Below, piece after piece: positions 2 to 23,971 of a stretch of 64,000 nt of DNA. The position numbers and the translations under genes were made by a program. Location: positions 96,001 through 160,000 of IMG/VR virus record IMGVR_UViG_3300005077_000489. The stretch is one strand, 5' to 3'. Every line of letters begins with the position of its first letter. Position 1 is the first letter of the stretch. Origin of the DNA: a virus. Its lineage: Duplodnaviria; Caudoviricetes. The notes beneath the pieces are model-generated. The model had not been told where the DNA came from and did no database searches. It was given only the letters and a program-made list of their open reading frames with translations.

Positions 2-3000
2 GATAAATACAGATCCGATGTAGAAACCGCTGTCTCTCGTGGTCGGGGCTTTGGTAGCAGAACAGCAGCGGAGACCTACGCGAGAGTTTCTGGTATAGAT
101 ATTTCTTCATTAGATAAGAAGGCTAGGCAAGGTGTTACGCAGGGTATAACTGCTGTTGAAGATTTATTCACTAATATAAAACAAGAGTCTACAATCCTTG
201 CAGAGTCTACTGGTAGAACACTTTATGAAGCTAGAGATGAGATATCCAAAAAAATTACAGAGACTATAAATAATTTTGATATAACCAAAGCCTTGGATGA
301 TAAGACCTTGGCAGAAATGTCAAATGACTTAAGAGATAGACTTAAATCTTTAATACCAAAAGACTCTGAGAATGCTGCAAAACTAGAAGAGAATATTAAT
401 AGTTTAGTTTCTAAGTTCACAAGTTACTTCCAAAAATTCCAACGACCCATATTAGAGATTTCTAAAGATATTCCTACTGATAAACTTAAGAAGAGTATCG
501 TTGACCTATATGGAGCTATTGCCGGAAAAATAAATAGTCCAGCCATCAATGAACAAATTGAACTGGCTAAGCAAGTGTTTGAAAAGAATATGGGTCATTT
601 AAGAGGAAAATTAGGAGAAGTTAAGTTTGCTGAATACCGGGATAAGTTTGCAGAAATGATGGTTACACGATATCAAATGTGGTCCGAGAGTATCAGAACT
701 AAAATGGATGCATATATGAATTCGGCAAAAGACATGTTTACCAACATAGATGCTGCTTTGGGGGACACGTTTGGTAGGTCTTGGGATTATGTAAAAGGGA
801 TAAATATCGGACCAAAATTGCAGGCTGTATTAACTGGCTTAGTAGGTAGTGCTGCGGAATTATTTGAAGGTGCACAATCTAGTTTTGCACTACCTCTTAG
901 AGAAATAGAAAAACGGGTAAAACAATTAGACTGGAAGAGTACCTCGGATGTTATGCACGATGTTTGGTTTACACTACAAAAATCTTTAGTGTGGCTGCGT
1001 TCCGAAGCAGAAAGATATTCAGGAGAGGCTGAAAACTATAACAAAAAAGAACAGCAAGATCAGTTAAAACTAAGATTAAAACAGAGGGCAGCTTGGGAAC
1101 AAACATTAGCATTCCAGGGATTATCGAGAGAAGAGATACAAGGACCACCCGGTACAATAGCATTAAAACGACCAGAATCTTTACTAGCCGCTCCAAGTTT
1201 TGAAAGAGAAGGCATGTACAATATGGCTACAAAATATGGTCCCCTAGGGAGTTATGCCGACATCATTCAATCTTATAATGACATAGCTCGGGGTGCCTTA
1301 GCAGAAGGAAAGCCCTTTGGTACTAATTTGGGAACTGTCGTCCTAAGACCTGGATATGCACAACAGATGGGTATAGTTGGTGGCGGTACTAAATTAGGTG
1401 GAGTGGAGGTAGGACCTAAACTTCCTGTTACTTTAGGATACACTGCTGAAACAGGTGTTACCCCTATGGTTACTACACAACCTTTAGGTGGTATAGGTGG
1501 TCGTATTACACCACTGACTGAGTTACCAGAAGGTTCTATACAACTTGCTATGGGTGGCACCAGAATGATTAATTTTCGAGATACTTACGAAAAAGCAATC
1601 AGGTCTATAGCATACGGGGCTGGTATGAATGTATCTACCTACGCTGCACAAGAGAAGTTGAAGTTAGGTGCAGATTTTGAATGGGAAGTAAGGGGCTACG
1701 ATAAAGCTGTTAATTCTATGTGGAATATCTCCACTGCTCTGTTTAATATGAATAAGCAAATGGAAGAATTCAGAAAACAGGCTACTTCTGCTGGTGCTCA
1801 GACAGAGAGTGCTATGCAAAAGATAGAGGACATGAAACTAGACCAAAGGATGTTAGGTGCATTAATTAGACTAAAGGAAATGTTGGAAGAGTTCAATAAT
1901 GCCAAAGAAAAAATGACCTTTGATTTCGGTCTTGGAGAAGTAGAAGAAAACATCCGTGTGTTACAGAGGTCCCGTAGAGTAGGACTAGAAGGTATGGTAG
2001 GGTTGCCCACTAAAATGCCTACGGAATTAAGGTCTTGGTCTCAGTTGAAACCAGAGGAGCGAGCGGCTGTAGTCAGTCCGCAGTATGCCGCTTCTACACG
2101 CCGCTTAGCCGAAGCAGAGAGAAGACAAGGACTAGGTGAGAGGACGGAATTGCTCGCGGCTAAAGCAGATTATAGGGCTCGTGCATATGTGGATGAACTT
2201 AAGAAGCAGGTCAACTTAGAAAGAGAACTTGGTCCGGAAGCCTATCAAGCTTTATCAAGAGATATACTAACAGCAGATAATGAGACAGCCAGAAATACGT
2301 CGGTTAGTATAGGGCTACAAAAAGGTATGGTATCTGCACTAATCGGTATCAAAGACGCTATCACGGCAAACTTCTCCACAATGAAAGTAGAGGAAGTCTA
2401 TAAGGAAGCCATAAATTATAAGAAAACAGCGGAACAATTGGAACAGCAAGCATTAGCAATGGGTGTTCCCGAGAACTTGTCTCCGGAGATGCAAGAAAAA
2501 CAAAGGGGCTTAAATGAAAGAGCCCGCGTCTATAGGACTTTGTTTGAGGAAGGCAAAATAGAAATTTATGAGAGAACTAGAAGACCGGAAAAATCCCTTA
2601 TTACTCCTGAGTCCTTTCATAGGGTTGTATTAGGATTTCTGGCTAGTACAAAAGAGCAAGAAAGGACTATTAGGGCTAGCCTTAATGTTGGTAATAATAG
2701 AGCCGAGCAGGCACTATTTGATATTGCTACCAGACTACCACGTGAACGACGAAATGCATTCCTACAAAACAGGTATATAACAAAGAACATAGAGGCTGCT
2801 GGCAGCAATTATGTAGGTGTAGATTTTGCAGCGAATGTAGCCAAACGTCTTAAGAAATTTGATGACGAATGGTCTGAATTACAAGCCAGAAAGAAAGAGG
2901 GTAAGATATTAGAAGAGTATCTTAAACAGGCTCCACCACAGTTTCCAAACTACATGAAAGATTTCGTAGGTTTAGTGGGTATCAAATTAGGGGAAACCGT

Positions 3001-6000
3001 GGGTAAAAAGGTATTTGGTGACCCTGCCCGAGCACAACAAGCCAGTAAAGAATTATTAGAAAAAATGGTAAAATCCTCAGATTGGGAAAGGCAAATAATG
3101 CTAAACCAATCGGATTGGTTAAGACAAATTGCAGACAACACCAAAGCAATGAGAAGCAGTTCTCCTGCTTCTTCGGAAGATTTATATTCATATGGTCATA
3201 GTCCAGCAGACCGGCTAGTTAGAAACTTCTCGGCGGTGTCTTCTGGTTTAAATACATCTAGCCTGCTGGGTCCTGCCTTGATTGCTGCTGGTATGGTAGG
3301 TCTCTACAAATGGTTGGGGGGTAAGGGCGTTGCTTTAAATTTTATACCTGTTAGACAAGGGAACGTACCTGCAGCAGTATTATCTGACCAAAATCTAGCT
3401 AATATTTCTAAGGGACTCGACGGCTTAATTCGTAATTTTAAGTATTATAATGAAACACAAAAAATGGCATTTGACCAGGAGAAACTAGCTGCGTTAAGAG
3501 AACCTTCATGGCGTGGTGCTGTGGTAAGCCCGGATATAAGCAAAGGTCTAATACGCCGCGGTATCGCTGGTGGTGTTGCTGGATCTGTTCTAGGTATAGG
3601 TCTTTTACCTGCTGGGTTAGCTGCCGTTGCTTATACAGTGGCTAAACGATTAGAACCTAGTCTAGGTAAAGGTGTATTAAGCCGGTCTTTAGGTATTGGT
3701 CTAGGCACCAGCCTGCTGGCGGGTAGTGCAGCCAAAATGATTGGTCTAGGAGCTGCAACTTTTGCTCTTCCTATAATACCTATTGCGACAGTTTCTGCTA
3801 TCTATATGATGGTAAAAAGAATGGGTATGAGTGATACATGGTTGTCCGGACATATGGGGCATCCTATTTTTGGTAGGGGAGGGTACGAAGGTGGTATGTG
3901 GCGTGCTCGTGCCGAGATAGCGGATACCTTATTAAATAGATTTATAAAGGGAATTTCTAGGATACCTGAATTTTTTGGTGGTACTGGTCGTGGTCTTATA
4001 GGACGAGGCTTAACAGTAGGTGTTGGTGCTTCTCTGTTAGGTGCTCCTGGTCTGGCAGCAGGTTTAGCATATGGAGGTGGTGCTTTTGCATATAGATTAG
4101 CAACAGGTAAAGCCCCAGTAGGTCCAGGGTGGATGCAGACTGCGGGAGCACTAGGACAAGATGTTTTTACCGGCAAACTTGGTGCATTCCTTAATAGATT
4201 TCTGTCGGAACCTTACGGTGTACCGGGACCTAGAACAGGTAGATTTGGTAGGTATGCTAGAGATATAGAGACTCGTTATGCTCCTGGTACCACAGAGAAT
4301 TCTTTGGCACGTGCTTTCCAAGATCGACGTTTCATGAATGAATTTTTTATACAATTAGAAAGAGATGGGATACGCCTTGCTAAATTCAGTAATTGGTTAG
4401 CTACCACTGGTGAAAGATTAGCACCGCGTTTCTTTGGATATGTTTCTTCTCGGGTTTCTTCAGGCGGTGCCGATATTCGGTCTTACCCCTCTAGATTTTG
4501 GGAGGAAGCCAAGGATACTCTAACGAAGAGTAGTGAATTTAGACGTGGTTTCTATACTGATGTTCTAAACAGAATACCTCTTTCTCTAGAGAGGGCTGTC
4601 AGCGGAGCATTTAGTTCTAATTTAGTGCAACGGAGTATGTTGGGTACTGGTAAGTTAGCGACTGGTCTTCTGGAGAATTTATTAATTGGTACTATAAGTA
4701 TGGCTACCAGACGTGGTAATTTAGCAGTGGGTAATATGGCTGCTGGTACTGCTAGGGAATTAAGTCTCTACAGGGGAACTGGTAAAATTGTAGAGGGTAT
4801 TTCTAGCACATTAGAATTTACGAGAGCCTTAGTAAACGTCACCCAAGCATCCCTAGAGGCTGCTAGACAAGGAAAATATTTGTCTCACGTATTTAAACAA
4901 ATGGCTGATAGTGGGCAAGGGTTCTTCCGAACCTTGTTGACTAAGGTAAGAGACGAAAGACTTTATAGACAATTAGATTTGTTAAAGACAGCACCATTAA
5001 GTACTGTATCCAGAGCAGCTACAGAACCAATCTTTAGTTTGGCGTATGGAGCTGGTGGTTATACTGCCACTAGAATTCCTAGGGCTGGTACTCCTGTAGA
5101 GAATGTTTCTACGTTGCGTCAAAGAATGTCTGAAAGATGGCGAGTAGCAGGGTTACCGGAATATACTTTGCACGGAGAAAGGTTGCCTTGGGGTTTGAGT
5201 GGTGCAGGTATGAAATTAGGTGGTGCTTATGGAGCTGCCGCTGGTGCTATGGGAGGTCCTCTTGGTTTTCTTACTACTCCGTTATCTATGGTTATAGGTG
5301 GTGCTCTAGGAGCATTAGGAGGCGGTAGATTATTAGGTGCTTCTGCTGGAAGAGCAGGTATGACCAAGTTAGATATTAGGAATCGTGCTAGAGAAATGCA
5401 AGCAATTTTCGGTAATGCTCCCCGCAGAGCGTTAGAAAGAATAGCCGAGGAAGAGTTAAGCACTATGAGTGGAAAGGTCTATAAGACTGAACCTCAGTTT
5501 CTTAAACGTGTGTGGAATTATTTCACTGGTAAACAACAGGTAGGTGGCGGGCTAGAGTCTTTATATGAACTACAACAAATGAAGCCCGTTCCACCGGCTA
5601 AAGGTAAAGGTGTTGTAGAACTTGCTAGAGAAGCCAGAAATATTAGAATGGACCAAATAGAAAGAGAGTTTATGGCTGCTGGTGGTAGACCTGAAGATTT
5701 ATCTTCATTTAAATATACTAGAACTAGACCAGTTAAAGTTATGCCAGAATTTAGTCTACAGGCACCATATGAAGAAAGATTGGCTGCTGCTCGTAGTATG
5801 CCTGACTACAAAGAAGTACAAAAGAAATTAATGGACTTGTCCAGGGAAAGGGTTAATGTAAAAAGCAGACTACAACAATTAAATTCTAGTATTCCTACAG
5901 AGTTCAATGCTTATAATACTATAATAGATGACCTTACGCAGCAATTGCGCAATGTGGAATCTTCTATGACAAAAATTACGGATGCTAGGAATAAGATTTA

Positions 6001-12000: not shown

Positions 12001-15000
12001 GGATAAACTACAATCAGCACAAGCAGAATTAGATAAAGCTCGAAGAAGGGTAGGGGAATTGGAAAAACAGCGGAGTTCCAAGCAAGTAGAGTTTGAGGCG
12101 GCAAGTAAAGCCCTCGTAGATACTCGTAATAAGTATTTGGATGCTATCTTTTCTAGTGTTGCCGAACAACTTAAGATAGCAGCGGATGCTATAGGCGAGA
12201 GAAATAAGGCGGCATTTGGTTATAAACTAGATCAAGGTAAGCTATATTCTCCGTTGGCGGGCATGATGTCAGGGGTATCGATGCCAACACAATTAGATAT
12301 CGGAAAAAATTATGTTGAAATGAGTGCCCAAGAAAGGTTTGCCGCTTTTAATCCTGAAGAATATTCTACTGCTGCAAAATCTCAAGAAGCCTATAACTCC
12401 GTATTGAAGCAATTATCTTATGTTACAGATGAATTAGTCAAATCAGAAGTAGAGATGATAATGCAAAGACAGGCGTTGGCTAAAATAGAAGACCAAAACA
12501 GTGAGCAGTACAAGAAGACTAAACGAACACTTGAGGACTTAGAAGTACGCAAAAGAGCTACTGAGCAGGCTATGGAAGAATATAGAGCCAGAGCATTAGA
12601 AAAACGTGTGGAAGCAGAAAAAAGAGCACAAGAAACTAGAATGGCTGTATTAGGGCATGAAACTAAGCGTTTTATAGAATCTACCACTAGGTCGATGGAA
12701 GAAGGAATTATTGGTATAACCGACAAATTTAGTCAGGCTTTTCGTATGTCTCCTTTGGTTGGTGCTACTGCTGGTTTGGCTACTCCTTTTAATATTAATA
12801 CTGGGAAAACAGAATTGCAACTGAGCCCACAAGAACGCGTTGCCCTGAATAACAATCAGTTATATAGAGCAGCATCTACAACGCAAGAAGAATTGCGTTT
12901 GGCTTCTGAACGTATTTCCAAGCTAGAGGGTAGAAGGGCTACTCTGCAGGCTGAGCAGCAAGAAGCAGCCCGCCTCGGTAACACTAGGTTAGTAGACGAA
13001 TATCAGAATAGGATAAATGCACTTACGCAAGAAATACAAAAAAATACTGATGAATTTAATAATTTGAGAAACTCTTCCAGAGAACTGATGGAGGAATTCA
13101 GGCAACAAGTCTGGGTAGAAGAGGTGAAGCGGCAATTATTGGACGTTGGTCTAGAAATGAAAAAAACTATAATAGGTTTTGGACAAGCCTTTGAACGTTC
13201 TAAAATATTTTCTCCTGTAACAGGAACTATGGCAGGTATAGGTTACTCAGGGGAAATCCCCAGAATACAAGAACTCCCAGAATTAAGTTCTAGTCAATTA
13301 TATGCTAAATATCAACCGGCGGGATACAGAGCAGGCATGGAGGCTATAAATCGTAGGAAGGCGTATGAACAAGCTATCTCTAGATACGACACAAATATAC
13401 AACAAATGGAAGCCCAATCTGCTATGGGCGGTGAGGCTGGTAAGGAAGCAGCGGCAAAGTTACCAGGATTATATGAAGCACGTCAGAAGTTGCTAGACCA
13501 GTATGATGCTGAGAAAAGTATATTAGAAGGTATAATAAAGGCTACTATGGAAGCCAATATGCGTTTTGAAGTTTTACGCGATGTCATACAGTCTGTTCAT
13601 AAGACAGTTAGTGCTATAGCACAAGGTATGGGACAATTAGTAGCAGCGGGGTTAAAGAGCCCGGTAGCGGGAGCCGCCAAGGGCCTCGTTCCTTATCAGT
13701 GGCAGGTCGCTAAACAAGAATTTGAACTTACTCCACAAGAAGTAGTAAATAAGTATGCTCCTAATATGGCAATGTCTGCTCATATGCAGCAACAAACTAT
13801 AGACACAATGGCAAACATGGCTGGAGAATTTACTACCAAAAGACAAGAAGCACTAATGAAGGCCCAGTTGGCAGAGACTCCGGAGGAACGTAATAGGTAT
13901 CTTAAGAAAGCAGATTATTATGGTGAGGCTTCTACTAGATTTGCTGATGCTGCCGAAGAGGCTCGTGCTGCATTGGAACCGTTGATTGAAAAATTAACTG
14001 CGTTAGCCAAAGTTGCTGAGGTTGCACAGAAATTTGAACAACTAGACCGCCAACTAAATATCTTAGCTAATACTCGTTGGGGTATGGATACTATACGTAT
14101 GGAGACCGAGATGGGTAAGCACCCGTCTTCATTACAAAGGGGGAGGTATGTAGAGGTAGGTGGTCGTTTAGAGTATATACCCGGCTTGGGCAGTGGTTCT
14201 ATGAATATACCCGGTATCCCTGGTGCCTATGCTGGTAGTTCCGGGTGGTACCAAACAGAGTACGAAAAGATTCCCGGCACGGAGTATGAAGTTCCTAGAG
14301 CATTCCAACCTGGTAGTAAAGAATGGCAGGAAATGAGAGTACTAGAGTTAAAACGGGATTCCGGCGAAGTAAAAGGTCCTGACTATGAACGGCAAAGAGC
14401 GATGATAACTTGGAATGCGGGTGAAGCACAAATACAATATTTGCAGAAGAGAGAGGACCAAAAATTTGAGAGACAGAAAGGTATAGCAGTACAAGCAGAA
14501 ACGGCGATAGAAGAAGCTCTTATAGGTTATAGCGATACATTACCACAACTACGGGGAATGTTAGAGCCTTATCGGGAGATGATAAAAGAGGATATGCAGC
14601 ATGCTGCAGATATCGTTGGAGAAGGTCCCGGCGGGGTATTACAACGGAGAGGCTTCCAAAGTTTGAGCGAAATGAAGAATGTTGCTTCTGAGTTGAAACA
14701 AATGATAAAGGCTGAAGATGCTCAAAATACTGCCCGTTATACTTGGTACCCAATAGTTAGACAATTAAAAGAATTACAAGAAGCATTAACAGGACAGTTA
14801 TCGGAAGAAACTCCAGAAGAAAAGGAAGCTAGAAAGCAAAATGAAGACGCTAAGAAATACTTTACTGAGAGATTAGATAAAATTACCTTAAAAGATAATA
14901 TGCCAAAGGATGAAACTGAGACTAAAACAGGTCGCAGAGATTACGCCGGTGCCCCTAGCGTAGAGCAAATAGAGAAAGCAAAAGAAGAAATTGATAAGAG

Positions 15001-18000
15001 AAAACCCTTTGACTGGTCTGGTATAAATGCAGGAAAGGGTATAAACCGGAGTCTTGCTGATTTCTCTAATGAAATATACAACAAGTATGTAGAGAAGTGG
15101 AAAGAGCAATCTAGGGTAGAGGGCTTATCTGGTAAACGTTATGGAGGGGCTGGTGTGGATGAAGATATACTAGGACAAGTCTATGGTTCTAAAGATATTC
15201 CTAGTATACTAGGTAAGAGTATGTTCAAACGCCTAGAACCTATGACAGGTGCTGAAGAAGCAGAGTGGTTAACATTCCTTAAAAATGCGGGGAAAGAAGA
15301 CGGTGGTGTTGCAGAATTTGCTAAAGCACAAGTAGAAAATATGCGTATGGCAAATACGTACGGAATACGCTCCTCCCAAGGTAGAGAAATGTGGCGTATC
15401 ATGAATTTTCAACCCGCTATGGATACACGACAGGAGAAGGACTGGCTGCAAGGTATGGAGGATAGTAAGAACCAAGTTAAATTCCAAAAGATGATGGGTA
15501 ACGCTACAGAGTGGGGAGTAAAATCTGCTACTGGTAGAGAAAATTGGCGTATAATGCATAAGCATGCTGAATTGATGAAGGAATATATAAGTAATCCACT
15601 ATGGAAACTGGTAAAACATTTTACTGGTGAAAATGCCCCAGATACTAAAGATACTACTCCAGATACCAAAGCTCCCGAAGTTAATAATGCTAATTCTATG
15701 TCATCAGATATCCTAGAAAAACAACTCGGTGTGCTACAAGAAATAAGAGATTGTATTTGTAGTGGTATGAAAGGTGGTGTAGGCGGAGTAAGTGGTGCGG
15801 GAGGTGCAACAGGTAGCGTTTCTTCCGCAGCAGTTGGTTTTGGTGTAGGAGAAAAAACTATTACACCGACGCCGACTACTATTCCTATTACACCGTCTAT
15901 CCCGAGACCTACTCCTACTACAATTATACCTACTGCTGGTAATGAAAAATTATTCTGGGATACAGAATGGAATTATCCACCAGAAGCAATAGGATTTGGT
16001 GCAGAATCTAAGACCACAACAGAATTACCGGATTGGGCTAAACCTAAACCATACAGACCTCTTCCCGAAGGTCTCGACCAGAATGAGATTAATCGTTTAT
16101 TATATGGCAATCCTAGTTGGATTCCCGAGTTGTCTGGACCCACGAAATTCCCAGAGGGTTTAGACGAGAATGAACTTAACCGATTGTTGTATGGTAATCC
16201 TAGTTGGACTCCTGAACTTACTCCTCCGACAGTATTTCCTCCTGGGTACACAGAGGATGTTAGCCCCGAAGATGTACTTGATTTGGAAGAACCTATATAT
16301 AGATCTCCTTCAAAATTATATAAAGACAGACTTAAAGATATGATGGATGCTGCGGTGGAGTATGGTTTCCCTGGCGGGGATAATTGGATATCTACAGGAA
16401 TGGATATGAGAAAGAAGAGAATACCCGGAGCTATCAAAGGAGTGAGAACATATAAAGAGTATCCTGTGAGAAGATTTAAATTTTTGTCTGGGGAACCTAC
16501 TGAAAAATCGATAGACTGGGATATTAGGTATAATCAAGCGCAAGACGAACTTGCGTCAGAGGAGGAATTTTGGGGAACTGTAGGTGGTTACGATGAAGGG
16601 TTCAACCAGCCGATTAATATAAAAAACTCAATGGGTGATTTACTATTGTATGCTGGACTTATCGATGATGCTGTAGCCATTGCTGGTTCTATCTCTGGGA
16701 TGTTTCGTGCTAAAAAGAAAGAGACATTACCTGTAGATTATAATAAATTATATGGTATGACTGGTGAGCAGGCTACAGAATATGCTATGCAATTCCCAGA
16801 AGAGATGCGCCAGCAAATAATGGATAAGTTTAATGATATAGAAATACAAAGAATAAGTGGTGAAGCTAGTGCTGGTGTTGAAGGAAAATGGGCACAAAGG
16901 GAGGAGAATTACAAGAGAAATGCTGAGAACAGAATTCGATTAACCAGTTTGCCTACTACACAAACACAACCAGAAGAAAAGAAAGATTTTACTACTATAC
17001 CTAGAGGGAGAGGGGAGGAAGAAAAGGCTACGGAAACAGAAGAGCAATATAAGAGGTACAACTGGCTCACTACTCCATTCGGTGAGAGAGTAGAGAAGGC
17101 TCTTGCTACTCCTATGGGGTTCAATGAAAGGTCATATCCGGCATCTGATGTGTTTCCTATAGGCGGCGGTCAGGCTCGTATATATGCGAAAACAGGTGGT
17201 CTTGGCGCTATGGTACCGGATAGCAAAGGAAAGTCTTATTTTGGTTTTAATGTTGAGGCGAAGGCTGGTGATATGTATGAGGAATTACAACATAGTAGAA
17301 CAGCTAAAATGTCTAAAGACCAATTACTTTCTATAGCGAATTCCGTGGGGGCATTACCTGGTGGTAAAGACCTTTTAAACGCCGCTATGACTTCTAGAAG
17401 GTCACAGACTGCATATAATGCTTATGGAGACCTTTCCAAGGAAATGCTTATGGAGGTCTTGGCTTCTTTAGGGCGCGGTGATAAGGAAAATATAGACAGA
17501 AGGAAAGCCTTACAGTCTAGCGAATTCGCGGAGTTAGATAGTGCTACATTATCTCTATATAAACAATCCGATGCTTTTAAATCCACTGTATTGAGGAAAG
17601 AATACGAGGAAGGACTAAAAAGGTATCTTGGAGAATTCATTGGTGCTACTAGTGCTCTGGGTCCGTCTGATATCTCGGATATATATACTTCTGATGTTTA
17701 TCCTGTTGGTGGAATGGGTTATTACGGAAAGAAAGAAGGACAGCCAGTAGATTATAGAGATTTTGTTGGTTCTGATGAAGAAATAATAGATTTATTTCCT
17801 GGCGGAGAGCCGTCTGAGGATAGAACACCGTGGTATAGTAGTCTAAGAGAACGAATTATGCAAGAAAGTGCCATGGAAAGGTTCTCTTCCGAACTGGACC
17901 AGTTCTATCCCGCTTCTAGTTGGCATGTAAATGATTTTGTTGATGCTGATAGGAAGAGACAAGAAGAATTACGAGCTAGTGAATTTGTGGATGCTGAGTC

Positions 18001-19753
18001 CTCATTACCAAAACCTACAGAAGCAAGAAGAGATTGGGTTCCTGAAGAAGTATTAGCAGAGAGATTCAGGAACGAAAAACCTATGATTACAAAGGAAGAG
18101 CAAAAAGCAAAGGAGAGGGAGAATGCACAAAAAGAAGCAGAACAAAAAGCAGAAGCTAAGAAAAAAGAGATGGCTAGTGTTCTATGTAATCAATGTGTAA
18201 TGAAAGTATTTATTACTAATTGGCCTGAGTCATTAGGCGGAGCAGGTGTAGAAACAGTTTCTGTTCCTGAAAAGTACAGCCCCACAGATAGGTCTAAGTT
18301 AACTGCACAAGGTATTATGGCGGGCAATATCTCTAAACACGTCGCAATAGAGGGTACCGGTAATAGTTTGTCTGTTACGGAATCTCCAATAGTAAGTAAC
18401 CAAGCGGGTATTCCTAATACTATGGGATTCCAAGTGCCAAAAGATATTGTAAAGGTGTTTGTTACGAATTGGCCCGGGGTCTATGGTGAAACATTTGGTC
18501 AAATGGACAGACAAGGTAAAATGGCTCCAGGTAGTGTTCTACCTCCTGCCGGGGCTAATTACATTAATAGTGCTCCCGAATATGGTCCCACAATTTCTAT
18601 GGGCGGTGGTGGTTCTATGCTTATAAAATCTCCTAGTAATCCTGCTATAGAAAGTTGCAGAAATTTAGGTGGTAGGTGGACGGGTGAAGAATGTATGTAC
18701 GGTCAAGACATGCCGAGACAAGAAGCAGGTTTAATGCCAGTACCGTCCAGGTCCGTAGAAGATGACTATTCAATGACTACACAGGCTATGTTGTGCGAGG
18801 CTCGTGGCGGTAAGTGGGATATGGCTAAAATGCGTTGTAAAACGAGGGAAGAAATAAAGAATGAAGAAATGGCTACTATTTATACCGATGTTGTAGATAT
18901 GATACCTGGTTATACGGTACCGCAAGGTACACCTAATTATTCTACTGTAACTGGGTATGGACCAGACATAAGCGGTAATGCCCAGTATTCTGTGGGTAAG
19001 GCTGCTGCAGGAATTATGTCTGGTAATGCTAACGGCTTACCTGTTGTAGTAATGAATTGGCCAGAGTTATTAATTAACCCTACGGCAGCACCATTAGATA
19101 TTATGCAGCAGAATCTGATGGATAAGAACATAAATCAACCGCTAGACCAAACCGGACAGACACCACAGTCTATAGTTGATGCAGATGCAATAACTAATTC
19201 TATAACGAATGCCTTGAGCCCTGTGCTCGCCGCTATAGAAAGATTTGCGACAAATCAAGTCAGCCCCGCGGGTAATGTTGGACCGGACGCAGGCACTGCA
19301 CTAGCGGAAGGTTTTAAAGCAGGTTTAGCTAACTTTGTATTACCTGTAGACCCAAATGCAATGGTCAAGTTGGACCCAAATGCAACGGTTAAAGTAGATG
19401 GCGGGGATAATGCTACAGGAAAGGGTGCAGTTGTTAACAGAGAAGTGGTTGACCAAGTTGTTAATGATGCATTAAAATCACGAAATATAGATTTAATTAA
19501 TGATACTGTCATAGAAATTAGAGATACTCTGGTACAAGTAAAGGCTGATGTATCACGTCAAAGTGATAAACTAGATAGTGATTTTACTGGTAGAGTAACT
19601 TCTCTTGAAACTAGGCTGGATGCTGTTATCCGAGAAGTAGCAAATGCTGTAAATCAACTAGCACAAACAACTACAAAGGTGGATGCTATCAAAAATACCC
19701 CACCACAAGACAGTAGTTCATTGAAACCAACAAATGGATATAATTTAACATAG
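2..19753 (+). CDS. Giant tape-measure-like protein (5'-truncated, at least 6,583 aa)
   Basis: Frame 2 has no stop from base 2 (DKYRSDVETAVSRG...) to TAA at 19751-19753, so the track's TTG start at 293 is internal. It is mostly helical/coiled-coil (E/K/Q/R/A/L-rich) with Gly-rich hydrophobic segments at ~3260-4100, ~5190-5360 and ~8690-9480. A V-[FV]-x-[TM]-NWP motif occurs three times near the C-terminus, as I recall from many phage TMP C-termini. It lies directly upstream of hub-like genes. Confidence 0.75.
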   Translation, partial: DKYRSDVETAVSRGRGFGSRTAAETYARVSGIDISSLDKKARQGVTQGITAVEDLFTNIKQESTILAESTGRTLYEARDEISKKITETINNFDITKALDDKTLAEMSNDLRDRLKSLIPKDSENAAKLEENINSLVSKFTSYFQKFQRPILEISKDIPTDKLKKSIVDLYGAIAGKINSPAINEQIELAKQVFEKNMGHLRGKLGEVKFAEYRDKFAEMMVTRYQMWSESIRTKMDAYMNSAKDMFTNIDAALGDTFGRSWDYVKGINIGPKLQAVLTGLVGSAAELFEGAQSSFALPLREIEKRVKQLDWKSTSDVMHDVWFTLQKSLVWLRSEAERYSGEAENYNKKEQQDQLKLRLKQRAAWEQTLAFQGLSREEIQGPPGTIALKRPESLLAAPSFEREGMYNMATKYGPLGSYADIIQSYNDIARGALAEGKPFGTNLGTVVLRPGYAQQMGIVGGGTKLGGVEVGPKLPVTLGYTAETGVTPMVTTQPLGGIGGRITPLTELPEGSIQLAMGGTRMINFRDTYEKAIRSIAYGAGMNVSTYAAQEKLKLGADFEWEVRGYDKAVNSMWNISTALFNMNKQMEEFRKQATSAGAQTESAMQKIEDMKLDQRMLGALIRLKEMLEEFNNAKEKMTFDFGLGEVEENIRVLQRSRRVGLEGMVGLPTKMPTELRSWSQLKPEERAAVVSPQYAASTRRLAEAERRQGLGERTELLAAKADYRARAYVDELKKQVNLERELGPEAYQALSRDILTADNETARNTSVSIGLQKGMVSALIGIKDAITANFSTMKVEEVYKEAINYKKTAEQLEQQALAMGVPENLSPEMQEKQRGLNERARVYRTLFEEGKIEIYERTRRPEKSLITPESFHRVVLGFLASTKEQERTIRASLNVGNNRAEQALFDIATRLPRERRNAFLQNRYITKNIEAAGSNYVGVDFAANVAKRLKKFDDEWSELQARKKEGKILEEYLKQAPPQFPNYMKDFVGLVGIKLGETVGKKVFGDPARAQQASKELLEKMVKSSDWERQIMLNQSDWLRQIADNTKAMRSSSPASSEDLYSYGHSPADRLVRNFSAVSSGLNTSSLLGPALIAAGMVGLYKWLGGKGVALNFIPVRQGNVPAAVLSDQNLANISKGLDGLIRNFKYYNETQKMAFDQEKLAALREPSWRGAVVSPDISKGLIRRGIAGGVAGSVLGIGLLPAGLAAVAYTVAKRLEPSLGKGVLSRSLGIGLGTSLLAGSAAKMIGLGAATFALPIIPIATVSAIYMMVKRMGMSDTWLSGHMGHPIFGRGGYEGGMWRARAEIADTLLNRFIKGISRIPEFFGGTGRGLIGRGLTVGVGASLLGAPGLAAGLAYGGGAFAYRLATGKAPVGPGWMQTAGALGQDVFTGKLGAFLNRFLSEPYGVPGPRTGRFGRYARDIETRYAPGTTENSLARAFQDRRFMNEFFIQLERDGIRLAKFSNWLATTGERLAPRFFGYVSSRVSSGGADIRSYPSRFWEEAKDTLTKSSEFRRGFYTDVLNRIPLSLERAVSGAFSSNLVQRSMLGTGKLATGLLENLLIGTISMATRRGNLAVGNMAAGTARELSLYRGTGKIVEGISSTLEFTRALVNVTQASLEAARQGKYLSHVFKQMADSGQGFFRTLLTKVRDERLYRQLDLLKTAPLSTVSRAATEPIFSLAYGAGGYTATRIPRAGTPVENVSTLRQRMSERWRVAGLPEYTLHGERLPWGLSGAGMKLGGAYGAAAGAMGGPLGFLTTPLSMVIGGALGALGGGRLLGASAGRAGMTKLDIRNRAREMQAIFGNAPRRALERIAEEELSTMSGKVYKTEPQFLKRVWNYFTGKQQVGGGLESLYELQQMKPVPPAKGKGVVELAREARNIRMDQIEREFMAAGGRPEDLSSFKYTRTRPVKVMPEFSLQAPYEERLAAARSMPDYKEVQKKLMDLSRERVNVKSRLQQLNSSIPTEFNAYNTIIDDLTQQLRNVESSMTKITDARNKIYAEQIASDLRKQLSTVTNERNTKVGAMERERSSLEARQSSLIKEAVSLDKQRVSIQETWLRGTFTQEEWAAQINALNERKQALKELKNAARTRGGQAQVNAETLIGSKTYRGKLLANVDVESGVKKLKLERNKSYIFEAMYGSTDDIQKQVRRAKYEETKLMKRRVIYAKQYGAGPLVSDTQDKLDKIRERIAKLQGRERDSINWDSFRKQYAEEIADLKIIEDFQTTRNNVREQIRKYDAELTATEGEKAQLRNMRGSQSEAKKASKKVGKILGTKTSTTPGTPDTLDELVGLTQDEIREISRRRESRMNLGVETTSRTGMRTTGLGKLQSMAARREEMLVGIEETLTKAPKDLQKSIRERYLRTMAEENVMSAIPNASQEVQNLAIERAVKLTKGAVPPVRDVAEWLVSSAKEGKADDILKLSGLNVDDFVNLKTITGIDDAIAKNLGDRLPEILKSQRDAYNNIKPQIKLLEAVYDDFRDTSRLFNEVGAGGKKGLVYTETQAKAMMTRLREALGTELDDIIKRTTPGGATDLDILERNPVAVQEIEKALKGGLKTKRKELGRLETSLDIKGLLGDRQSAIQELERLQNLMLKEGSSDLAKNDLTSLMMQQGNKIKDIDNQIKMMISDEGLLASTIKKFINEGKVLQDEIDRLQKQYKDVERQVGQAKLLKNIKTPVQADLEKLDEPVRNLYRNLGNNSDELVTHLEKNLLNAKSQLDNLREVAAGRAEVPLKPAQLLVQQELLTKLEDIAKAFRSGDKAVTDKAIGQLSRLFAANVDIPSEVLRNNREFIMNVLQMGSQAQSPYYAPVQSLFNVVKGSGKSAIEQANILDSVVGMFDDAVKRGHSFNDTLMKVEGHLLKFGYDTQQAMRSIRDAGDDLAKLTRTAVFAAEGTRPGGGAFATVGPRMHGPGIGGMMLAMAGTELGAQGLQSAFGISPLTSYGTILGGVALHQLISGGRGPGSEIGVMSRIGRGLAGVNESGWGRTGGLWGDLTSAFRPSEYAKSIGFPAKDWATRTGGLSGISGWFGKWREISTYKANLPATAAAEVGLAEKWLGPGGKHLGANLSMAAKALPVVMLGVESIFAQQRESERGYKGATGFMGGFLEVLTPSAMAMIAAYVAGSIATGGIMSIVAAAAAGAGAYTLATPLGEKVKNVYYGATGAVPVLTKTMQEEELKAYSPAARRSLEFKRANAELERLRQETQTTLPSRALSLMMPLVGAGGMMFTFDRLSRNMEREQGFTNAQKTVASLGQLLSDGGDITKMPFLAKYMQQTPELKAEYDKIVKYKEEMDSAVGGKDKEEKRKRYQDAVNEGLNKFTTALKRSSDLVEMITIDQYTENEALKQSSLSLVNLAEVAARTKTIFEEMPKAWAIQEQPWGERLSGPEVPNYRGRFERTVTDLMKEEAPEVYNSGMAAIEADKVAYSKLLKEREKERNIIGDMRNQQESMNRSVGANLDKLKLTGETLEKVKTLVRLEGEFINAPQSEVGSRVLELDKLAKDLGKLGNYMSTQSSYEFKDVWRVEANKLSNYSTLKMPLAGAQETLNALSEFENRLGERVKKEGLTEENRKNLEIVKKAKPGLQKQIDAREGAEKVLTRLPSEVDELIRRRSSLDSQRKLIEDETKALEENRHSRAAIIQQLMEYTEVMKVLHQAQRQLLETETVRVSNMPGGGAQTRRMYEGRLPNQMMFGTETSAIPLQDLMPKSVTQLTAMDLFALSNKTGMNDLNKVYTAYKKAEQNMYEIRTSLDTAMSTATLEKSRINKFGDLVNKGVFNQKDELTNLVDTGINYVNKIQGVLSDYGDQLPATIKTALEKQTNEYKTQYDRVTKQETKLKEAEQELTDLYKIDTIPKEQQLKTLERGVEGNKPERIIATEKRIKIGLNQTIIDLNKEGLTRSDQYLMLEERKATARNSMEQYERAGNKSNAASEKDKLEELEVISKVLLEKTPKLPEYSKVKKELDDLAKQKTDKSAAIENLKSDIKKAKESMDAIEKSIVKLPKDKLQSAQAELDKARRRVGELEKQRSSKQVEFEAASKALVDTRNKYLDAIFSSVAEQLKIAADAIGERNKAAFGYKLDQGKLYSPLAGMMSGVSMPTQLDIGKNYVEMSAQERFAAFNPEEYSTAAKSQEAYNSVLKQLSYVTDELVKSEVEMIMQRQALAKIEDQNSEQYKKTKRTLEDLEVRKRATEQAMEEYRARALEKRVEAEKRAQETRMAVLGHETKRFIESTTRSMEEGIIGITDKFSQAFRMSPLVGATAGLATPFNINTGKTELQLSPQERVALNNNQLYRAASTTQEELRLASERISKLEGRRATLQAEQQEAARLGNTRLVDEYQNRINALTQEIQKNTDEFNNLRNSSRELMEEFRQQVWVEEVKRQLLDVGLEMKKTIIGFGQAFERSKIFSPVTGTMAGIGYSGEIPRIQELPELSSSQLYAKYQPAGYRAGMEAINRRKAYEQAISRYDTNIQQMEAQSAMGGEAGKEAAAKLPGLYEARQKLLDQYDAEKSILEGIIKATMEANMRFEVLRDVIQSVHKTVSAIAQGMGQLVAAGLKSPVAGAAKGLVPYQWQVAKQEFELTPQEVVNKYAPNMAMSAHMQQQTIDTMANMAGEFTTKRQEALMKAQLAETPEERNRYLKKADYYGEASTRFADAAEEARAALEPLIEKLTALAKVAEVAQKFEQLDRQLNILANTRWGMDTIRMETEMGKHPSSLQRGRYVEVGGRLEYIPGLGSGSMNIPGIPGAYAGSSGWYQTEYEKIPGTEYEVPRAFQPGSKEWQEMRVLELKRDSGEVKGPDYERQRAMITWNAGEAQIQYLQKREDQKFERQKGIAVQAETAIEEALIGYSDTLPQLRGMLEPYREMIKEDMQHAADIVGEGPGGVLQRRGFQSLSEMKNVASELKQMIKAEDAQNTARYTWYPIVRQLKELQEALTGQLSEETPEEKEARKQNEDAKKYFTERLDKITLKDNMPKDETETKTGRRDYAGAPSVEQIEKAKEEIDKRKPFDWSGINAGKGINRSLADFSNEIYNKYVEKWKEQSRVEGLSGKRYGGAGVDEDILGQVYGSKDIPSILGKSMFKRLEPMTGAEEAEWLTFLKNAGKEDGGVAEFAKAQVENMRMANTYGIRSSQGREMWRIMNFQPAMDTRQEKDWLQGMEDSKNQVKFQKMMGNATEWGVKSATGRENWRIMHKHAELMKEYISNPLWKLVKHFTGENAPDTKDTTPDTKAPEVNNANSMSSDILEKQLGVLQEIRDCICSGMKGGVGGVSGAGGATGSVSSAAVGFGVGEKTITPTPTTIPITPSIPRPTPTTIIPTAGNEKLFWDTEWNYPPEAIGFGAESKTTTELPDWAKPKPYRPLPEGLDQNEINRLLYGNPSWIPELSGPTKFPEGLDENELNRLLYGNPSWTPELTPPTVFPPGYTEDVSPEDVLDLEEPIYRSPSKLYKDRLKDMMDAAVEYGFPGGDNWISTGMDMRKKRIPGAIKGVRTYKEYPVRRFKFLSGEPTEKSIDWDIRYNQAQDELASEEEFWGTVGGYDEGFNQPINIKNSMGDLLLYAGLIDDAVAIAGSISGMFRAKKKETLPVDYNKLYGMTGEQATEYAMQFPEEMRQQIMDKFNDIEIQRISGEASAGVEGKWAQREENYKRNAENRIRLTSLPTTQTQPEEKKDFTTIPRGRGEEEKATETEEQYKRYNWLTTPFGERVEKALATPMGFNERSYPASDVFPIGGGQARIYAKTGGLGAMVPDSKGKSYFGFNVEAKAGDMYEELQHSRTAKMSKDQLLSIANSVGALPGGKDLLNAAMTSRRSQTAYNAYGDLSKEMLMEVLASLGRGDKENIDRRKALQSSEFAELDSATLSLYKQSDAFKSTVLRKEYEEGLKRYLGEFIGATSALGPSDISDIYTSDVYPVGGMGYYGKKEGQPVDYRDFVGSDEEIIDLFPGGEPSEDRTPWYSSLRERIMQESAMERFSSELDQFYPASSWHVNDFVDADRKRQEELRASEFVDAESSLPKPTEARRDWVPEEVLAERFRNEKPMITKEEQKAKERENAQKEAEQKAEAKKKEMASVLCNQCVMKVFITNWPESLGGAGVETVSVPEKYSPTDRSKLTAQGIMAGNISKHVAIEGTGNSLSVTESPIVSNQAGIPNTMGFQVPKDIVKVFVTNWPGVYGETFGQMDRQGKMAPGSVLPPAGANYINSAPEYGPTISMGGGGSMLIKSPSNPAIESCRNLGGRWTGEECMYGQDMPRQEAGLMPVPSRSVEDDYSMTTQAMLCEARGGKWDMAKMRCKTREEIKNEEMATIYTDVVDMIPGYTVPQGTPNYSTVTGYGPDISGNAQYSVGKAAAGIMSGNANGLPVVVMNWPELLINPTAAPLDIMQQNLMDKNINQPLDQTGQTPQSIVDADAITNSITNALSPVLAAIERFATNQVSPAGNVGPDAGTALAEGFKAGLANFVLPVDPNAMVKLDPNATVKVDGGDNATGKGAVVNREVVDQVVNDALKSRNIDLINDTVIEIRDTLVQVKADVSRQSDKLDSDFTGRVTSLETRLDAVIREVANAVNQLAQTTTKVDAIKNTPPQDSSSLKPTNGYNLT
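12238..13770 (+). repeat. Four degenerate ~150-167-aa protein repeats in the giant ORF
   Basis: SP[LV]xG motifs (LYSPLAG, RMSPLVG, IFSPVTG, LKSPVAG) have Ser codons at 12248, 12749, 13211 and 13658. Each is followed ~25 aa later by MSAQE/LSPQE/LSSSQ/LTPQE and a long coiled coil. Confidence 0.65.
15362..15560 (+). repeat. Two-copy 51-aa-spaced protein motif G[IV][RK]SxxGRExWRIM
   Basis: GIRSSQGREMWRIM at 15362 and GVKSATGRENWRIM at 15515 (153 nt apart). Confidence 0.7.
16061..16250 (+). repeat. In-frame 87-nt (29-aa) tandem repeat, about 2.3 copies
   Basis: LPEGLDQNEINRLLYGNPSWIPELSGPTK / FPEGLDENELNRLLYGNPSWTPELTPPTV / FPPG. Pro codons at 16064, 16151 and 16238. Many differences are synonymous. 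Confidence 0.9.
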
Positions 19754-23216: not shown

Positions 23217-23957
23217 ATGGCTGGTTGTAATTGTTGTGTAACTTATGATTCTCAAATTATAGTTGGTGATGCTGATATAAGTAATCAAACTATTAGTATA
23301 TCAGTAGATTCATCACAAGAAATAATCTGGGAAGATAAAACAGACCAAGAGTGTGACCCTCTAGGAGATGAGAAGGTTTATCTCTACGGTCCGGGGAAAG
23401 CTTCAGTACAGATTACGGCATATCCATTTGCTCAATATACAGATTATACTTTTGGTTTTGAATGTCCTGTAAGTGTGAATGTAAATATACCATGGCGTTA
23501 CGTCTATGATTGTAGAGGTTGCGAACCATGTATAGACCCCGCGACAGGGGAGCAAGGTATAATGAGGAAAGGTCGCTATATTGGATTGCCAATGAAGAAG
23601 AAGCAGATTTCTGTTACTGGTGACATTGAGAATTCAAATCTATTTGAGGTGGGAGGTTGTGCTGTCCCTACAACAAAGTTTACTTTAACAGCAGGACCAC
23701 AGTCAATTATAACGCCTCAGCCGACCATGCAATACAGTTGGTTGAAATATCATGGGTTACCTTTTGAATTCGATACGGACCAAGTAAAGACTCCTTTTAT
23801 CATTACAATAAATAATGGTAGCGGTTGTAGTTGGGCATCGGGGTTTAGAAATGTAAGGGCTTATTTAACTAGTTTTTCATTTTCTTTCGCTCCTCCTCAA
23901 GTTCCTACTTGTAGTCTTAGTTTTGATGTTCTTGTAAGCTTCTGCCCAACATGCTAA
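23217..23957 (+). CDS. Cys-rich tail-tube/Dit-fold-like structural protein (246 aa)
   Basis: SD aaggag. Alternating beta pattern ending in AYLTSFSFSF...CSLSFDV, typical of tube/Dit folds. 13 Cys. Confidence 0.4.
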   Translation: MAGCNCCVTYDSQIIVGDADISNQTISISVDSSQEIIWEDKTDQECDPLGDEKVYLYGPGKASVQITAYPFAQYTDYTFGFECPVSVNVNIPWRYVYDCRGCEPCIDPATGEQGIMRKGRYIGLPMKKKQISVTGDIENSNLFEVGGCAVPTTKFTLTAGPQSIITPQPTMQYSWLKYHGLPFEFDTDQVKTPFIITINNGSGCSWASGFRNVRAYLTSFSFSFAPPQVPTCSLSFDVLVSFCPTC

Positions 23958-23971
23958 AAAGGAAATTTATT

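What the first reader, a model, noticed from the sequence alone, without database searches (positions are those of the whole stretch)
2..19753. Tape-measure-like gene of at least 19.7 kb implying a tail near or above 1 micron
Seen: the frame is open from base 2, so the protein is at least 6,583 aa and longer still upstream. It has coiled-coil composition, hydrophobic Gly-rich blocks and NWP motifs, and precedes hub-like genes. Established: tail length scales at about 0.15 nm per TMP residue, and the Thermus phage P23-45/P74-26 TMP (~5,000 aa) gives one of the longest known tails. Inference: about 0.75 micron if only the helical ~5,000 aa count, about 1 micron if all count, which could be a record.
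Basis: partly seen in the sequence, partly recalled or inferred. Interest (0 to 1): 0.68.

Follow-up and report, generated by a model that had tools for sequence, protein, structure and literature searches.

The report
Back half of 13,616-residue tape measure
The open frame is the rear 48% of one unbroken 13,616-residue phage tail "ruler" protein, almost three times the largest one studied; by the usual ruler rule it predicts a tail of about 1 to 2.4 micrometres, longer than any virus tail on record, but nobody has seen the particle.

Summary
Window 2..19753 is the last 6,583 codons of a single ORF of 13,616 codons (genome 74903-115753) in a 211-kb uncultured phage record. The scan had already reported this gene from the adjoining window of the same genome. 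This report adds the back half and the tail-length question.

[quoted passage not shown] The gene follows a conserved tube-like gene and precedes a conserved 786-aa gene.

Three complete relatives keep the frame open: 13,616, 14,712 and 12,316 aa. A fourth contig shows at least 7,069 aa. The enzyme-bearing front is constant in length (5,346-5,552 aa) and 48-63% identical. The part from the core to the C-terminus diverges fast (23-36% identity, many indels) and varies from 6,457 to 9,160 aa.

By crude composition measures the window part matches the ruler part of Thermus phage P23-45 gp96 and lambda gpH.

Four measured phages give 0.126-0.176 nm per residue. That predicts 0.8-1.2 µm from the window part alone, 1.0-1.5 µm from core to end, and 1.7-2.4 µm if every residue counts. 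Tail length remains an inference.

The parts
2..19753 (+). Last 6,583 codons (aa 7034-13616) plus stop of the 13,616-codon tape measure ORF. The ORF starts outside the window at genome 74903, which is 21,097 nt before window base 1.
3575..3784 (+). Gly/Ala-rich hydrophobic (membrane-segment-like) cluster, aa 8225-8294. It lies at a matching distance from the core in relative G004.
5261..5317 (+). Hydrophobic segment, aa 8787-8805.
9347..9403 (+). Hydrophobic segment, aa 10149-10167. A counterpart lies at G004 aa 10040.
7850..11449 (+). Sampled 1,200-aa stretch (aa 9650-10849). The AlphaFold2 model is all-alpha by DSSP (about 74% helix, no strand) but has very low confidence.
11870..13822 (+). 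Four tandem modules of about 150-170 aa. Each ends in a S-P-[LV]-x-G motif, at aa 11116, 11283, 11437 and 11586. The last motif is conserved in G004, L033 and P0002.
12431..15655 (+). The only well-conserved block of the back half, aa 11177-12251. It is 33-48% identical in relatives, has few indels, and serves as the second anchor for length comparisons.
15653..16402 (+). Pro-rich, non-helical segment (12.4% Pro, aa 12251-12500). It opens the variable C-terminal region.
18185..19102 (+). Three copies of the strand-like motif V-[FV]-[IV]-[TM]-N-W-P. One or two copies also occur in the otherwise unalignable C-terminal regions of G004, L033 and P0002, but none in G005.
19460..19753 (+). C-terminal tail of the protein that reads as helix-like. 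Every relative ends in a similar charged, Pro-poor stretch of about 80 aa.
   Evidence: reading of the sequences
19762..22122 (+). Cys-rich 786-aa gene directly after the TMP, in the position of a distal-tail or hub protein. It is 43-49% identical in G004 and L033; G005 has an 837-codon ORF in the same position that was not aligned. No family or PDB match.

Best explanation
The frame is the C-terminal 48% of one 13,616-residue (about 1.5 MDa) tail tape measure protein of an uncultured phage that probably has a non-contractile tail. The front of the chain (about aa 1-5345, outside the window) is enzyme cargo. A TP901-type TMP core lies at aa 5458-5795. Everything after the core, including the whole window part, is the tape-measure body. 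That body has largely helical stretches, three or four clusters of Gly/Ala-rich hydrophobic segments, four tandem modules, one conserved block, and a variable non-helical C-terminal region with NWP motifs that ends in a helical tail. The rest of this paragraph is inferred. The C-terminus docks in the tail tip. Chaperones coat the chain and tube subunits polymerise along it until it is covered, so chain length sets tail length. On infection the chain leaves first, its hydrophobic segments form the membrane conduit, and the N-terminal enzymes follow. Published calibrations span 0.126-0.176 nm per residue. They predict at least about 1.0-1.5 µm from the core-to-end segment alone, and 1.7-2.4 µm if the cargo also counts, as the P23-45 numbers suggest it does there. 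Confidence that this is the TMP is about 0.93. Confidence that the tail exceeds 1 µm is about 0.55-0.6.
For: The ORF is open over 13,616 codons where 973 stops are expected. TMP core: PF10145, 91.7 bits against a cut-off of 33.2; TIGR01760 tape_meas_TP901, 129.9 bits against 28.8, covering 340 of 349 model positions. By tblastn the core matches 133 cultured phage records, and all 12 listed lie under CDSs annotated as tape measure. The best is Bacillus siphovirus vB_BcoS-136, whose TMP of 2,792 aa has the core at about aa 656-999.

Context: TerL, portal and major capsid protein lie upstream. A 576-aa gene is 64-68% identical in relatives, second only to the capsid protein, and its structural neighbours in the Atlas are tail-tube clusters (TM by hit 0.79-0.85). 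No sheath Pfam was found in G000 or in the complete G004.

Independent assemblies keep the frame whole: G004 14,712 aa, G005 12,316 aa, L033 at least 7,069 aa. All are collinear with ours. Front length is 5,346, 5,552 and 5,479 aa at 48-63% identity with few indels. Core-to-end length is 8,270, 9,160, 6,837 and 6,457 aa at 23-36% identity with 100-200 indel positions per 500 aa.

Composition: aa 7034-12250 has Pro 3.2% and heptad coverage 16.9%. P23-45 gp96 aa 1201-5002 has Pro 3.3% and coverage 15.1%, lambda gpH has 17.5%, and the globular RNA polymerase part of gp96 has 0%. The AF2 sample is 74% helix with no strand, at low confidence. The language-model neighbours of the conserved block that carry a name are mostly TMP families, at a weak score of 0.85.

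Calibrations: TP901-1 937 aa (own knowledge) and 118 nm (PMC5099701); Tsamsa 3,123 aa and 440 nm (PMC3903500); P23-45 5,002 aa and more than 800 nm, 'nearly 1 µm' (PMC10770324, PMC9022992, PMC10034513); lambda 853 aa and 150 nm (PMC9022992).
Against: No family, PHROG, NCBIfam or PDB sequence hit lies inside the window part itself. Its TMP identity therefore rests on being the same ORF as the core, on composition, and on context. The heptad signal covers only about 16% of the window part, and Pro occurs about every 25 residues, so this is not a continuous coiled coil. Both AF2 models were of very low confidence (pLDDT 33.7 and 33.9). The tube assignment rests on Atlas neighbours that count only as leads. 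The downstream 'hub' is unassigned. A tube lumen 4 nm wide could hold a trimer packed more densely than one extended strand each (own calculation: an extended trimer fills only about 21% of it), so the tail could be shorter than the rule predicts. G005 lacks both the strong hydrophobic segments after the core and the NWP motif. P0004, a 1,538-aa gene call on a 140-kb contig, may be a split or short form.
Confidence: 0.6

Rival explanations
It may fold back as helical hairpins, or its cargo and Gly-rich parts may be compacted in the lumen. The tail would then be long but not a record, roughly 0.4-0.9 µm.
For: A trimer at 0.15 nm per residue fills only about 21% of a 4-nm lumen. The whole trimer would fit in 0.43 µm at 100% fill and in 0.87 µm at 50% fill (own calculation; lumen width from PMC9022992). 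Prolines and Gly-rich blocks interrupt the helices often. The middle and C-terminal segments trade length between relatives. The middle is 4,932-4,935 aa in G000 and 1,709 aa in G005; the C-terminal part is 1,621 aa and 3,402 aa. So not every segment need be a strict ruler.
Against: In all four calibrator phages the whole chain scales at 0.126-0.176 nm per residue. This includes P23-45, whose TMP carries a 1,200-aa polymerase and has the same Pro content and heptad coverage as the segment here (PMC10770324, PMC9022992, PMC3903500, PMC5099701). No TMP is known to fold back (own knowledge).
Confidence: 0.22
2. The ORF is a polyprotein that is cut before or during assembly. Only one piece, for example the core plus 1,000-3,000 aa, measures the tail. 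The other pieces of the back half are separate ejection or membrane-channel proteins, so the tail is 0.5 µm or less.
For: Hydrophobic clusters recur about every 2,000 aa, as if several TMP-like units were joined. Four tandem modules end in a conserved S-P-[LV]-x-G motif. The Tsamsa TMP runs as two bands (PMC3903500). P0004 (1,538 aa) might be a free-standing piece.
Against: Three complete lineages and one partial lineage at 23-63% identity keep 12,316-14,712 codons in one frame, in the same order, with no fission. In lambda and T5 the cut comes after length has been set (own knowledge). No protease or intein family was found in the window part.
Confidence: 0.15
3. The frame is an assembly chimera or is not a virion protein.
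For: The record is a metagenome assembly, and none of the window part has a family hit.
Against: Four different records from different samples carry the same collinear gene next to the same neighbours. The frame has no stops where 973 are expected.
Confidence: 0.02

Closest known systems
Thermus phage P23-45 / P74-26 gp96 (5,002-aa TMP with N-terminal virion RNA polymerase; tail over 800 nm, the longest known) - PMC10770324, PMC10034513, PMC9022992
   Same: A giant TMP with enzyme cargo at the N-terminus and membrane-type segments. By Pro content, heptad coverage and Pro-free run lengths, its ruler part cannot be told apart from aa 7034-12250 here. The tail is non-contractile.
   Different: No detectable sequence similarity (best BLAST E 0.23). 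This protein is 2.7 times longer. Its TMP core is of the TP901 type. No metallopeptidase was found in the back half. The cargo is about 5,300 aa against about 1,200 aa.
Tsamsa-like Bacillus siphoviruses (vB_BanS-Tsamsa TMP 3,123 aa, tail 440 nm; vB_BcoS-136 TMP 2,792 aa) - PMC3903500
   Same: They carry the same TP901-type core domain (28% identity, E 2e-37, full length). The core is followed by a long C-terminal body, about 1,800 aa in vB_BcoS-136. They are large siphoviruses whose tail length fits TMP size.
   Different: The core lies about 650 aa from their N-terminus and 5,450 aa from it here. The body after the core is 4-5 times longer here. Nothing outside the core is similar.
Lactococcus phage TP901-1 TMP (prototype of TIGR01760/PF10145) - PMC5099701
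   Same: Same core family. The architecture matches: mostly helical, hydrophobic regions, tandem repeats that set length, and a non-helical extreme C-terminal region needed for assembly.
   Different: 937 aa against 13,616 aa. Its repeats are 11 or 18 aa, while the modules here are about 150-170 aa. It has no cargo.
Phage T5 pb2 and lambda gpH (own knowledge; lambda gene read)
   Same: They act as rulers, membrane-active segments are ejected first, and they are cut during maturation.
   Different: No sequence relation was tested beyond composition. They are more than ten times smaller.

Membership tests
Tail tape measure protein, TP901-1 type (TIGR01760 / PF10145) | Match to the family's core domain above the curated cut-off | tested here: met
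   TIGR01760 scores 129.9 bits (cut-off 28.8) at aa 5458-5795, model positions 3-342 of 349. PF10145 scores 91.7 bits (cut-off 33.2). The core lies in the same ORF but upstream of the window.
Tail tape measure protein, TP901-1 type (TIGR01760 / PF10145) | Gene placed between tail tube/chaperone genes and distal-tail/tip genes | tested here: inconclusive
   The order capsid - tube-like 576-aa gene - 325, 228 and 369-aa genes - TMP - 786-aa gene is conserved in relatives. The tube assignment rests on Atlas structural neighbours. AF2 failed. The chaperone-position and tip-position genes have no family hit.
Tail tape measure protein, TP901-1 type (TIGR01760 / PF10145) | Largely helical body with hydrophobic, membrane-type segments | tested here: met
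   Hydrophobic 19-mers lie at aa 5875-5948, 8225-8294, 8787 and 10149. Heptad coverage and Pro statistics equal those of gp96 and gpH. The AF2 sample is 74% helix with no strand, at low confidence.
Tail tape measure protein, TP901-1 type (TIGR01760 / PF10145) | Chain length sets tail length | not testable with these tools
   This needs particles. The indirect support is that body length varies between relatives (6,457-9,160 aa) while cargo length does not.
Tail tape measure protein, TP901-1 type (TIGR01760 / PF10145) | Present in the virion tail | not testable with these tools
   The phage is uncultured and no proteome exists.
Cargo-fused TMP of the P23-45 gp96 kind | Sequence homology to gp96 | tested here: not met
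   The best BLAST E-value is 0.23. The resemblance is in design, not in ancestry that can be shown.
Cargo-fused TMP of the P23-45 gp96 kind | Enzyme domains in the same chain, N-terminal to the ruler | tested here: met
   RNA_ligase lies at aa 3033-3176, LigD_N at 3381-3485 and RNase H at 3675-3801. The RNA polymerase reported by earlier agents was not re-tested here.
Contractile-tail (myovirus) TMP | A sheath gene in the genome | tested here: not met
   PF04984 and PF17482 were not found in G000 or in the complete G004. No sheath-sized gene lies next to the tube-like gene. A very divergent sheath cannot be excluded.

The most novel reading that the evidence does not exclude
Every residue counts, as the P23-45 numbers imply for its polymerase-bearing TMP. 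These phages (TMPs of 12,316, 13,616 and 14,712 aa) would then carry flexible tails of about 1.7-2.6 µm. That is two to three times the current record and longer than most bacterial cells. Such a tail would thread about 5,300 residues of unfolded enzyme cargo per chain through the tube, and might be an adaptation for reaching cells through thick sheaths, capsules or biofilm matrix.
Probability: 0.3. Interest if true: 0.88.

Novelty: new variant of a known kind. Interest (0 to 1): 0.72.

Why it matters
Tape measures are the textbook case of a protein ruler, and the longest one tested is 5,002 residues with a tail of about 0.8-1 µm. Here are three complete phage genomes and one partial contig whose rulers are 2.5-3 times longer. 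The rulers also vary by thousands of residues between relatives while the attached enzyme cargo stays constant in length. That gives a natural series for three questions. Does the ruler rule hold into the micrometre range? How is a 1.5-MDa chain kept extended and chaperoned? How is a tube of hundreds of rings built without error? It also suggests that some of the 'extremely long-tailed' siphovirus particles seen in sediments may belong to lineages like this one. No paper describing a TMP above 10,000 residues turned up in six full-text searches, which is limited evidence of absence. Within this scan the gene itself had already been reported from the neighbouring window.

Tried and rejected
- Pfam, PHROGs, NCBIfam and PDB sequence searches of the window part found nothing usable.
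- The search for homologous proteins returned nothing. Its length bands exclude proteins this large.
- The search for related loci with single proteins (TMP C-terminus, 786-aa gene, P0004) found no relatives. Relatives came only through TerL and through alignments.
- The exhaustive representative search with aa 11200-12399 gave only two hits in 1.84 billion proteins.
- AF2 of the tube-like protein (4 sequences) and of a TMP stretch (2 sequences) gave pLDDT 33.7 and 33.9. No fold search was run on them.
- My Chou-Fasman mask was too crude and was dropped.
- BLAST of the protein against itself found no long internal repeats. The four modules were seen only by motif.
- G003 (260 kb, TerL 48% identical) has no detectable homologue of this TMP. 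Its 3,199-aa ORF with a weak PF10145 hit most likely corresponds, by size and order of three consecutive ORFs (no alignment run), to our 3,141-aa ORF downstream of the window, and it has no BLAST similarity to this TMP.
- A -1 frameshift joining the 228-aa and 369-aa upstream genes was considered and rejected, because the frames do not overlap.
- The L033 record is not held for whole-record search, so its full ORF length is unknown.
Full report
OBSERVATION

The + strand frame that begins at window base 2 is open to the stop at 19751-19753, a run of 6,583 codons. The window is bases 96001-160000 of a 211,229-bp IMG/VR virus record, which is linear and 86% complete by CheckV. Read on the whole record, the frame starts at a GTG at genome 74903 and ends at 115753. 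That is 13,616 codons, 40.85 kb, or about 1.5 MDa.

Base composition predicts about 973 stops in a frame this long. There are none, and the other two frames of the same strand hold 1,213 and 1,377. The relative G004 starts with the same residues at a GTG directly after a stop.

- Gly-rich hydrophobic blocks are present.
- Three NWP motifs are present.
- The 'coiled-coil composition' holds only in the loose sense in which it holds for known tape measures.

IDENTITY

Nothing inside the window part matches Pfam, PHROGs, NCBIfam or any PDB sequence. Upstream in the same ORF there are four domain hits:
- RNA_ligase at aa 3033-3176, LigD_N at aa 3381-3485 and RNase H at aa 3675-3801.
- A tape-measure core at aa 5458-5795. 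TIGR01760 tape_meas_TP901 scores 129.9 bits against a cut-off of 28.8 and covers nearly the whole model. PF10145 scores 91.7 bits.

By tblastn the core matches 133 cultured phages, and all 12 listed lie under CDSs annotated as tape measure. The best hits are the large Bacillus siphoviruses of the Tsamsa group. In vB_BcoS-136 the core lies at about aa 656-999 of a 2,792-aa TMP, so the long body follows the core, as it does here.

CONTEXT

TerL, the portal and the major capsid protein lie upstream. Between the capsid gene and the TMP there is a 576-aa gene that is 64-68% identical in relatives. Only the capsid protein is better conserved, at 71-75%.

- The ESM Atlas holds a model of the 576-aa protein, and its named structural neighbours are tail-tube clusters (PF26461, PF18906; TM normalised by the hit 0.79-0.85). 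The tool counts this as a lead.
- My own AF2 run on four sequences failed, with pLDDT 33.7.
- A profile comparison of its two halves gave E 0.0076 over 151 columns. This is a weak hint of an internal duplication of the kind known in T5 and P74-26 (PMC10034513, PMC9022992).
- No sheath Pfam family was found in this record or in the complete G004, and no sheath-sized gene lies beside the tube-like gene. A non-contractile tail is therefore the more likely type.
- The two conserved genes just upstream (228 and 369 aa) and the Cys-rich 786-aa gene just downstream lie where chaperones and a distal-tail or hub protein would be, but they have no family match. The 'hub-like' label is therefore positional only.

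RELATIVES

Relatives were reached through TerL and through alignments.

| Record | Size and completeness | Giant ORF |
|---|---|---|
| G004 | 545 kb, CheckV 100% | 14,712 codons, one frame |
| G005 | 256 kb, 97% | 12,316 codons |
| L033 | 82-kb metagenome contig | at least 7,069 codons (cut by the fetched stretch), followed by the homologue of the 786-aa gene |
| G001, G002 | fragments | contigs end inside the gene |

All of these are collinear with ours.

An exhaustive search of 1.84 billion representative proteins with aa 11200-12399 found only two further pieces. P0002 is a 5,103-aa fragment. The cluster of the 380-aa P0003 also holds the 1,538-aa P0004. So the family is rare.

| Record | N-terminus to core start (aa) | Core start to C-terminus (aa) |
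|---|---|---|
| G000 (ours) | 5,346 | 8,270 |
| G004 | 5,552 | 9,160 |
| G005 | 5,479 | 6,837 |
| L033 | not known | 6,457 |

- The front is 48-63% identical and almost free of indels.
- The body is 23-36% identical, with 100-200 indel positions per 500 residues.
- One block is an exception: aa 11177-12251 is 33-48% identical.
- Between the core and that block, the chain is 4,932 aa in G000, 4,361 in G004, 2,486 in L033 and about 1,709 in G005.
- After the block, the chain is 1,365-1,621 aa in G000, 2,802 in G004, 1,913 in L033, 3,402 in G005 and 3,768 in P0002.

Enzymes of constant length joined to a fast-drifting body of variable length is what one expects of cargo attached to a ruler.

ANATOMY OF THE WINDOW PART

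- Helix-rich stretches have Pro-free runs of up to 209 aa.
- Hydrophobic Gly/Ala clusters lie at aa 8225-8294, 8787 and 10149. G004 has counterparts at matching distances from the core. G005 has none above my threshold.
- Four tandem modules of about 150-170 aa each end in S-P-[LV]-x-G. The last is conserved in G004, L033 and P0002.
- The conserved block follows. Its nearest named language-model neighbours are tape-measure families, at a weak score of 0.85.
- A Pro-rich segment comes next.
- The variable, non-helical C-terminal region has three V-[FV]-[IV]-[TM]-N-W-P motifs. The motif recurs in G004, L033 and P0002 although their C-terminal regions do not align, and it is absent from G005.
- The chain ends in a tail that reads as helix-like, as it does in every relative.

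TP901-1, the prototype of the core family, has the same plan at small scale. It is mostly helical, has hydrophobic regions, has repeats that set length, and has a non-helical C-terminal extremity that is essential for assembly (PMC5099701).

IS THE BODY RULER-LIKE?

I compared crude measures with TMPs whose tails have been measured.

| Segment | Pro | Heptad coverage | Pro-free run (median / 90th percentile / max) |
|---|---|---|---|
| This protein, aa 7034-12250 | 3.2% | 16.9% | 19 / 75 / 209 |
| P23-45 gp96, aa 1201-5002 | 3.3% | 15.1% | 21 / 66 / 197 |
| Lambda gpH | not compared | 17.5% | not compared |
| gp96 RNA polymerase part (crystallised) | not compared | 0% | not compared |
| Shuffled sequence | - | 0.9% | - |

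An AF2 model of aa 9650-10849 is about 74% helix with no strand, but its pLDDT is 33.9, so only the local helix call carries any weight. The body therefore looks like the ruler part of the largest studied TMP. It shares no sequence with that protein (best E 0.23).

TAIL LENGTH (INFERENCE)

The published pairs of TMP size and tail length are:

| Phage | TMP (aa) | Tail | nm per residue | Source |
|---|---|---|---|---|
| TP901-1 | 937 (own knowledge) | 118 nm | 0.126 | PMC5099701 |
| Tsamsa | 3,123 | 440 nm | 0.141 | PMC3903500 |
| P23-45 / P74-26 | 5,002 | over 800 nm, 'nearly 1 µm' | over 0.16 | PMC10770324, PMC9022992, PMC10034513 |
| Lambda | 853 | 150 nm | 0.176 |, PMC9022992 |

In P23-45 the ratio needs the whole chain, polymerase included.

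Applied to this protein (for 0.141-0.176; the 0.126 lower ends are by hand), the range 0.126-0.176 nm per residue gives:

| Residues counted | Number (aa) | Predicted tail |
|---|---|---|
| Window part only | 6,583 | 0.83-1.16 µm |
| Core to C-terminus | 8,271 | 1.04-1.46 µm |
| Whole chain | 13,616 | 1.72-2.40 µm |

For G004 the whole-chain figure reaches 2.6 µm.

A volume check shows a way out of these numbers. It assumes three copies per tail (own knowledge) and a 4-nm lumen (PMC9022992). An extended trimer fills only about 21% of the lumen, and the whole trimer would fit in 0.43 µm at complete fill or in 0.87 µm at half fill. A folded-back or compacted chain could therefore give a shorter tail.

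I put about 0.55-0.6 on a tail longer than 1 µm and about 0.3 on one near 2 µm. The rest goes to fold-back packing or to processing before assembly.

COMPARISON AND NOVELTY

In design this is a cargo-fused tape measure like P23-45 gp96. By ancestry of its core it is a TP901/Tsamsa-type TMP. It differs from both in three ways:
- Scale: it is 2.7 times the largest studied TMP.
- Core position: the core lies 5,450 residues into the chain.
- Body: it is 6,500-9,200 residues long.

The gene was already reported by this scan from the adjoining window (e1-5366498 and related notes). New in this report are:
- the analysis of the back half;
- the third complete relative and the fourth lineage;
- the finding that the cargo is constant in length while the body varies;
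- the conserved block and the NWP motif;
- the calibrated tail-length range with its rivals.

Six literature searches found no description of a TMP of this size.

LIMITS

- The protein-homology tool cannot see proteins this long.
- Both structure predictions were unusable for fold search.
- Tail length, virion presence and processing cannot be tested with these tools.

Noticed in passing
L005:9175-12036 (genome 64175-67036, upstream of the window): A 953-aa hybrid sensor kinase (receiver - PAS x3 - GAF - HisKA - HATPase) lies inside the virion structural block, between the capsid and tail genes. It is 37-43% identical in three relatives, and shortened to the kinase end in G004.
   Followed up: partly
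window 19762-22122: The 786-aa protein directly after the TMP has 14 invariant cysteines across three lineages and matches no known family or PDB sequence. It is a candidate tail-tip or hub protein of unknown fold.
   Followed up: partly
window 23951-24907 and 50596-51822; genome 38636-39943: Homing-endonuclease-type genes (LAGLIDADG/HNH, phrog_4645, phrog_2214) are scattered through the structural module. One lies between the portal and the next head gene.
   Followed up: no
L005:16744-17721 (genome 71744-72721): A 325-aa gene with a weak sulfotransferase-family match (PF03567, E 0.0018) lies between the tube-like gene and the chaperone-position genes. It is only 24-28% identical in relatives.
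   Followed up: no
P0004 (1,538 aa, JGI contig of 139,960 bp): This gene call covers only the four-module region plus the conserved block of the TMP. It starts with Met and ends about 180 aa after the block. It is either a lineage with a split TMP, a lineage with a much shorter TMP end, or a contig-edge call. The contig could not be fetched.
   Followed up: partly
G003 (IMGVR_UViG_3300029286_000009, 259,732 bp; L028, L029): This relative (TerL 48% identical, CheckV 96%) has ORFs of matching size and order to the 3,141, 2,187 and 655-aa ORFs that follow our window (not aligned). It has no detectable homologue of the giant TMP. TerL lies 30 kb from the contig end, so the record may be broken at the TMP despite its completeness score.
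   Followed up: partly
G004 (IMGVR_UViG_3300037484_000435): The relative with the longest TMP (14,712 aa) is a 545-kb record rated complete, in the megaphage size range. Only its tail-gene region, 285-365 kb, was read here.
   Followed up: no
L005:14796-16523 (genome 69796-71526): The N and C halves of the tube-like 576-aa protein align weakly to each other (hhalign E 0.0076, 28% identity over 151 columns). This may be a tandem tube-domain duplication like those in T5 and P74-26.
   Followed up: partly
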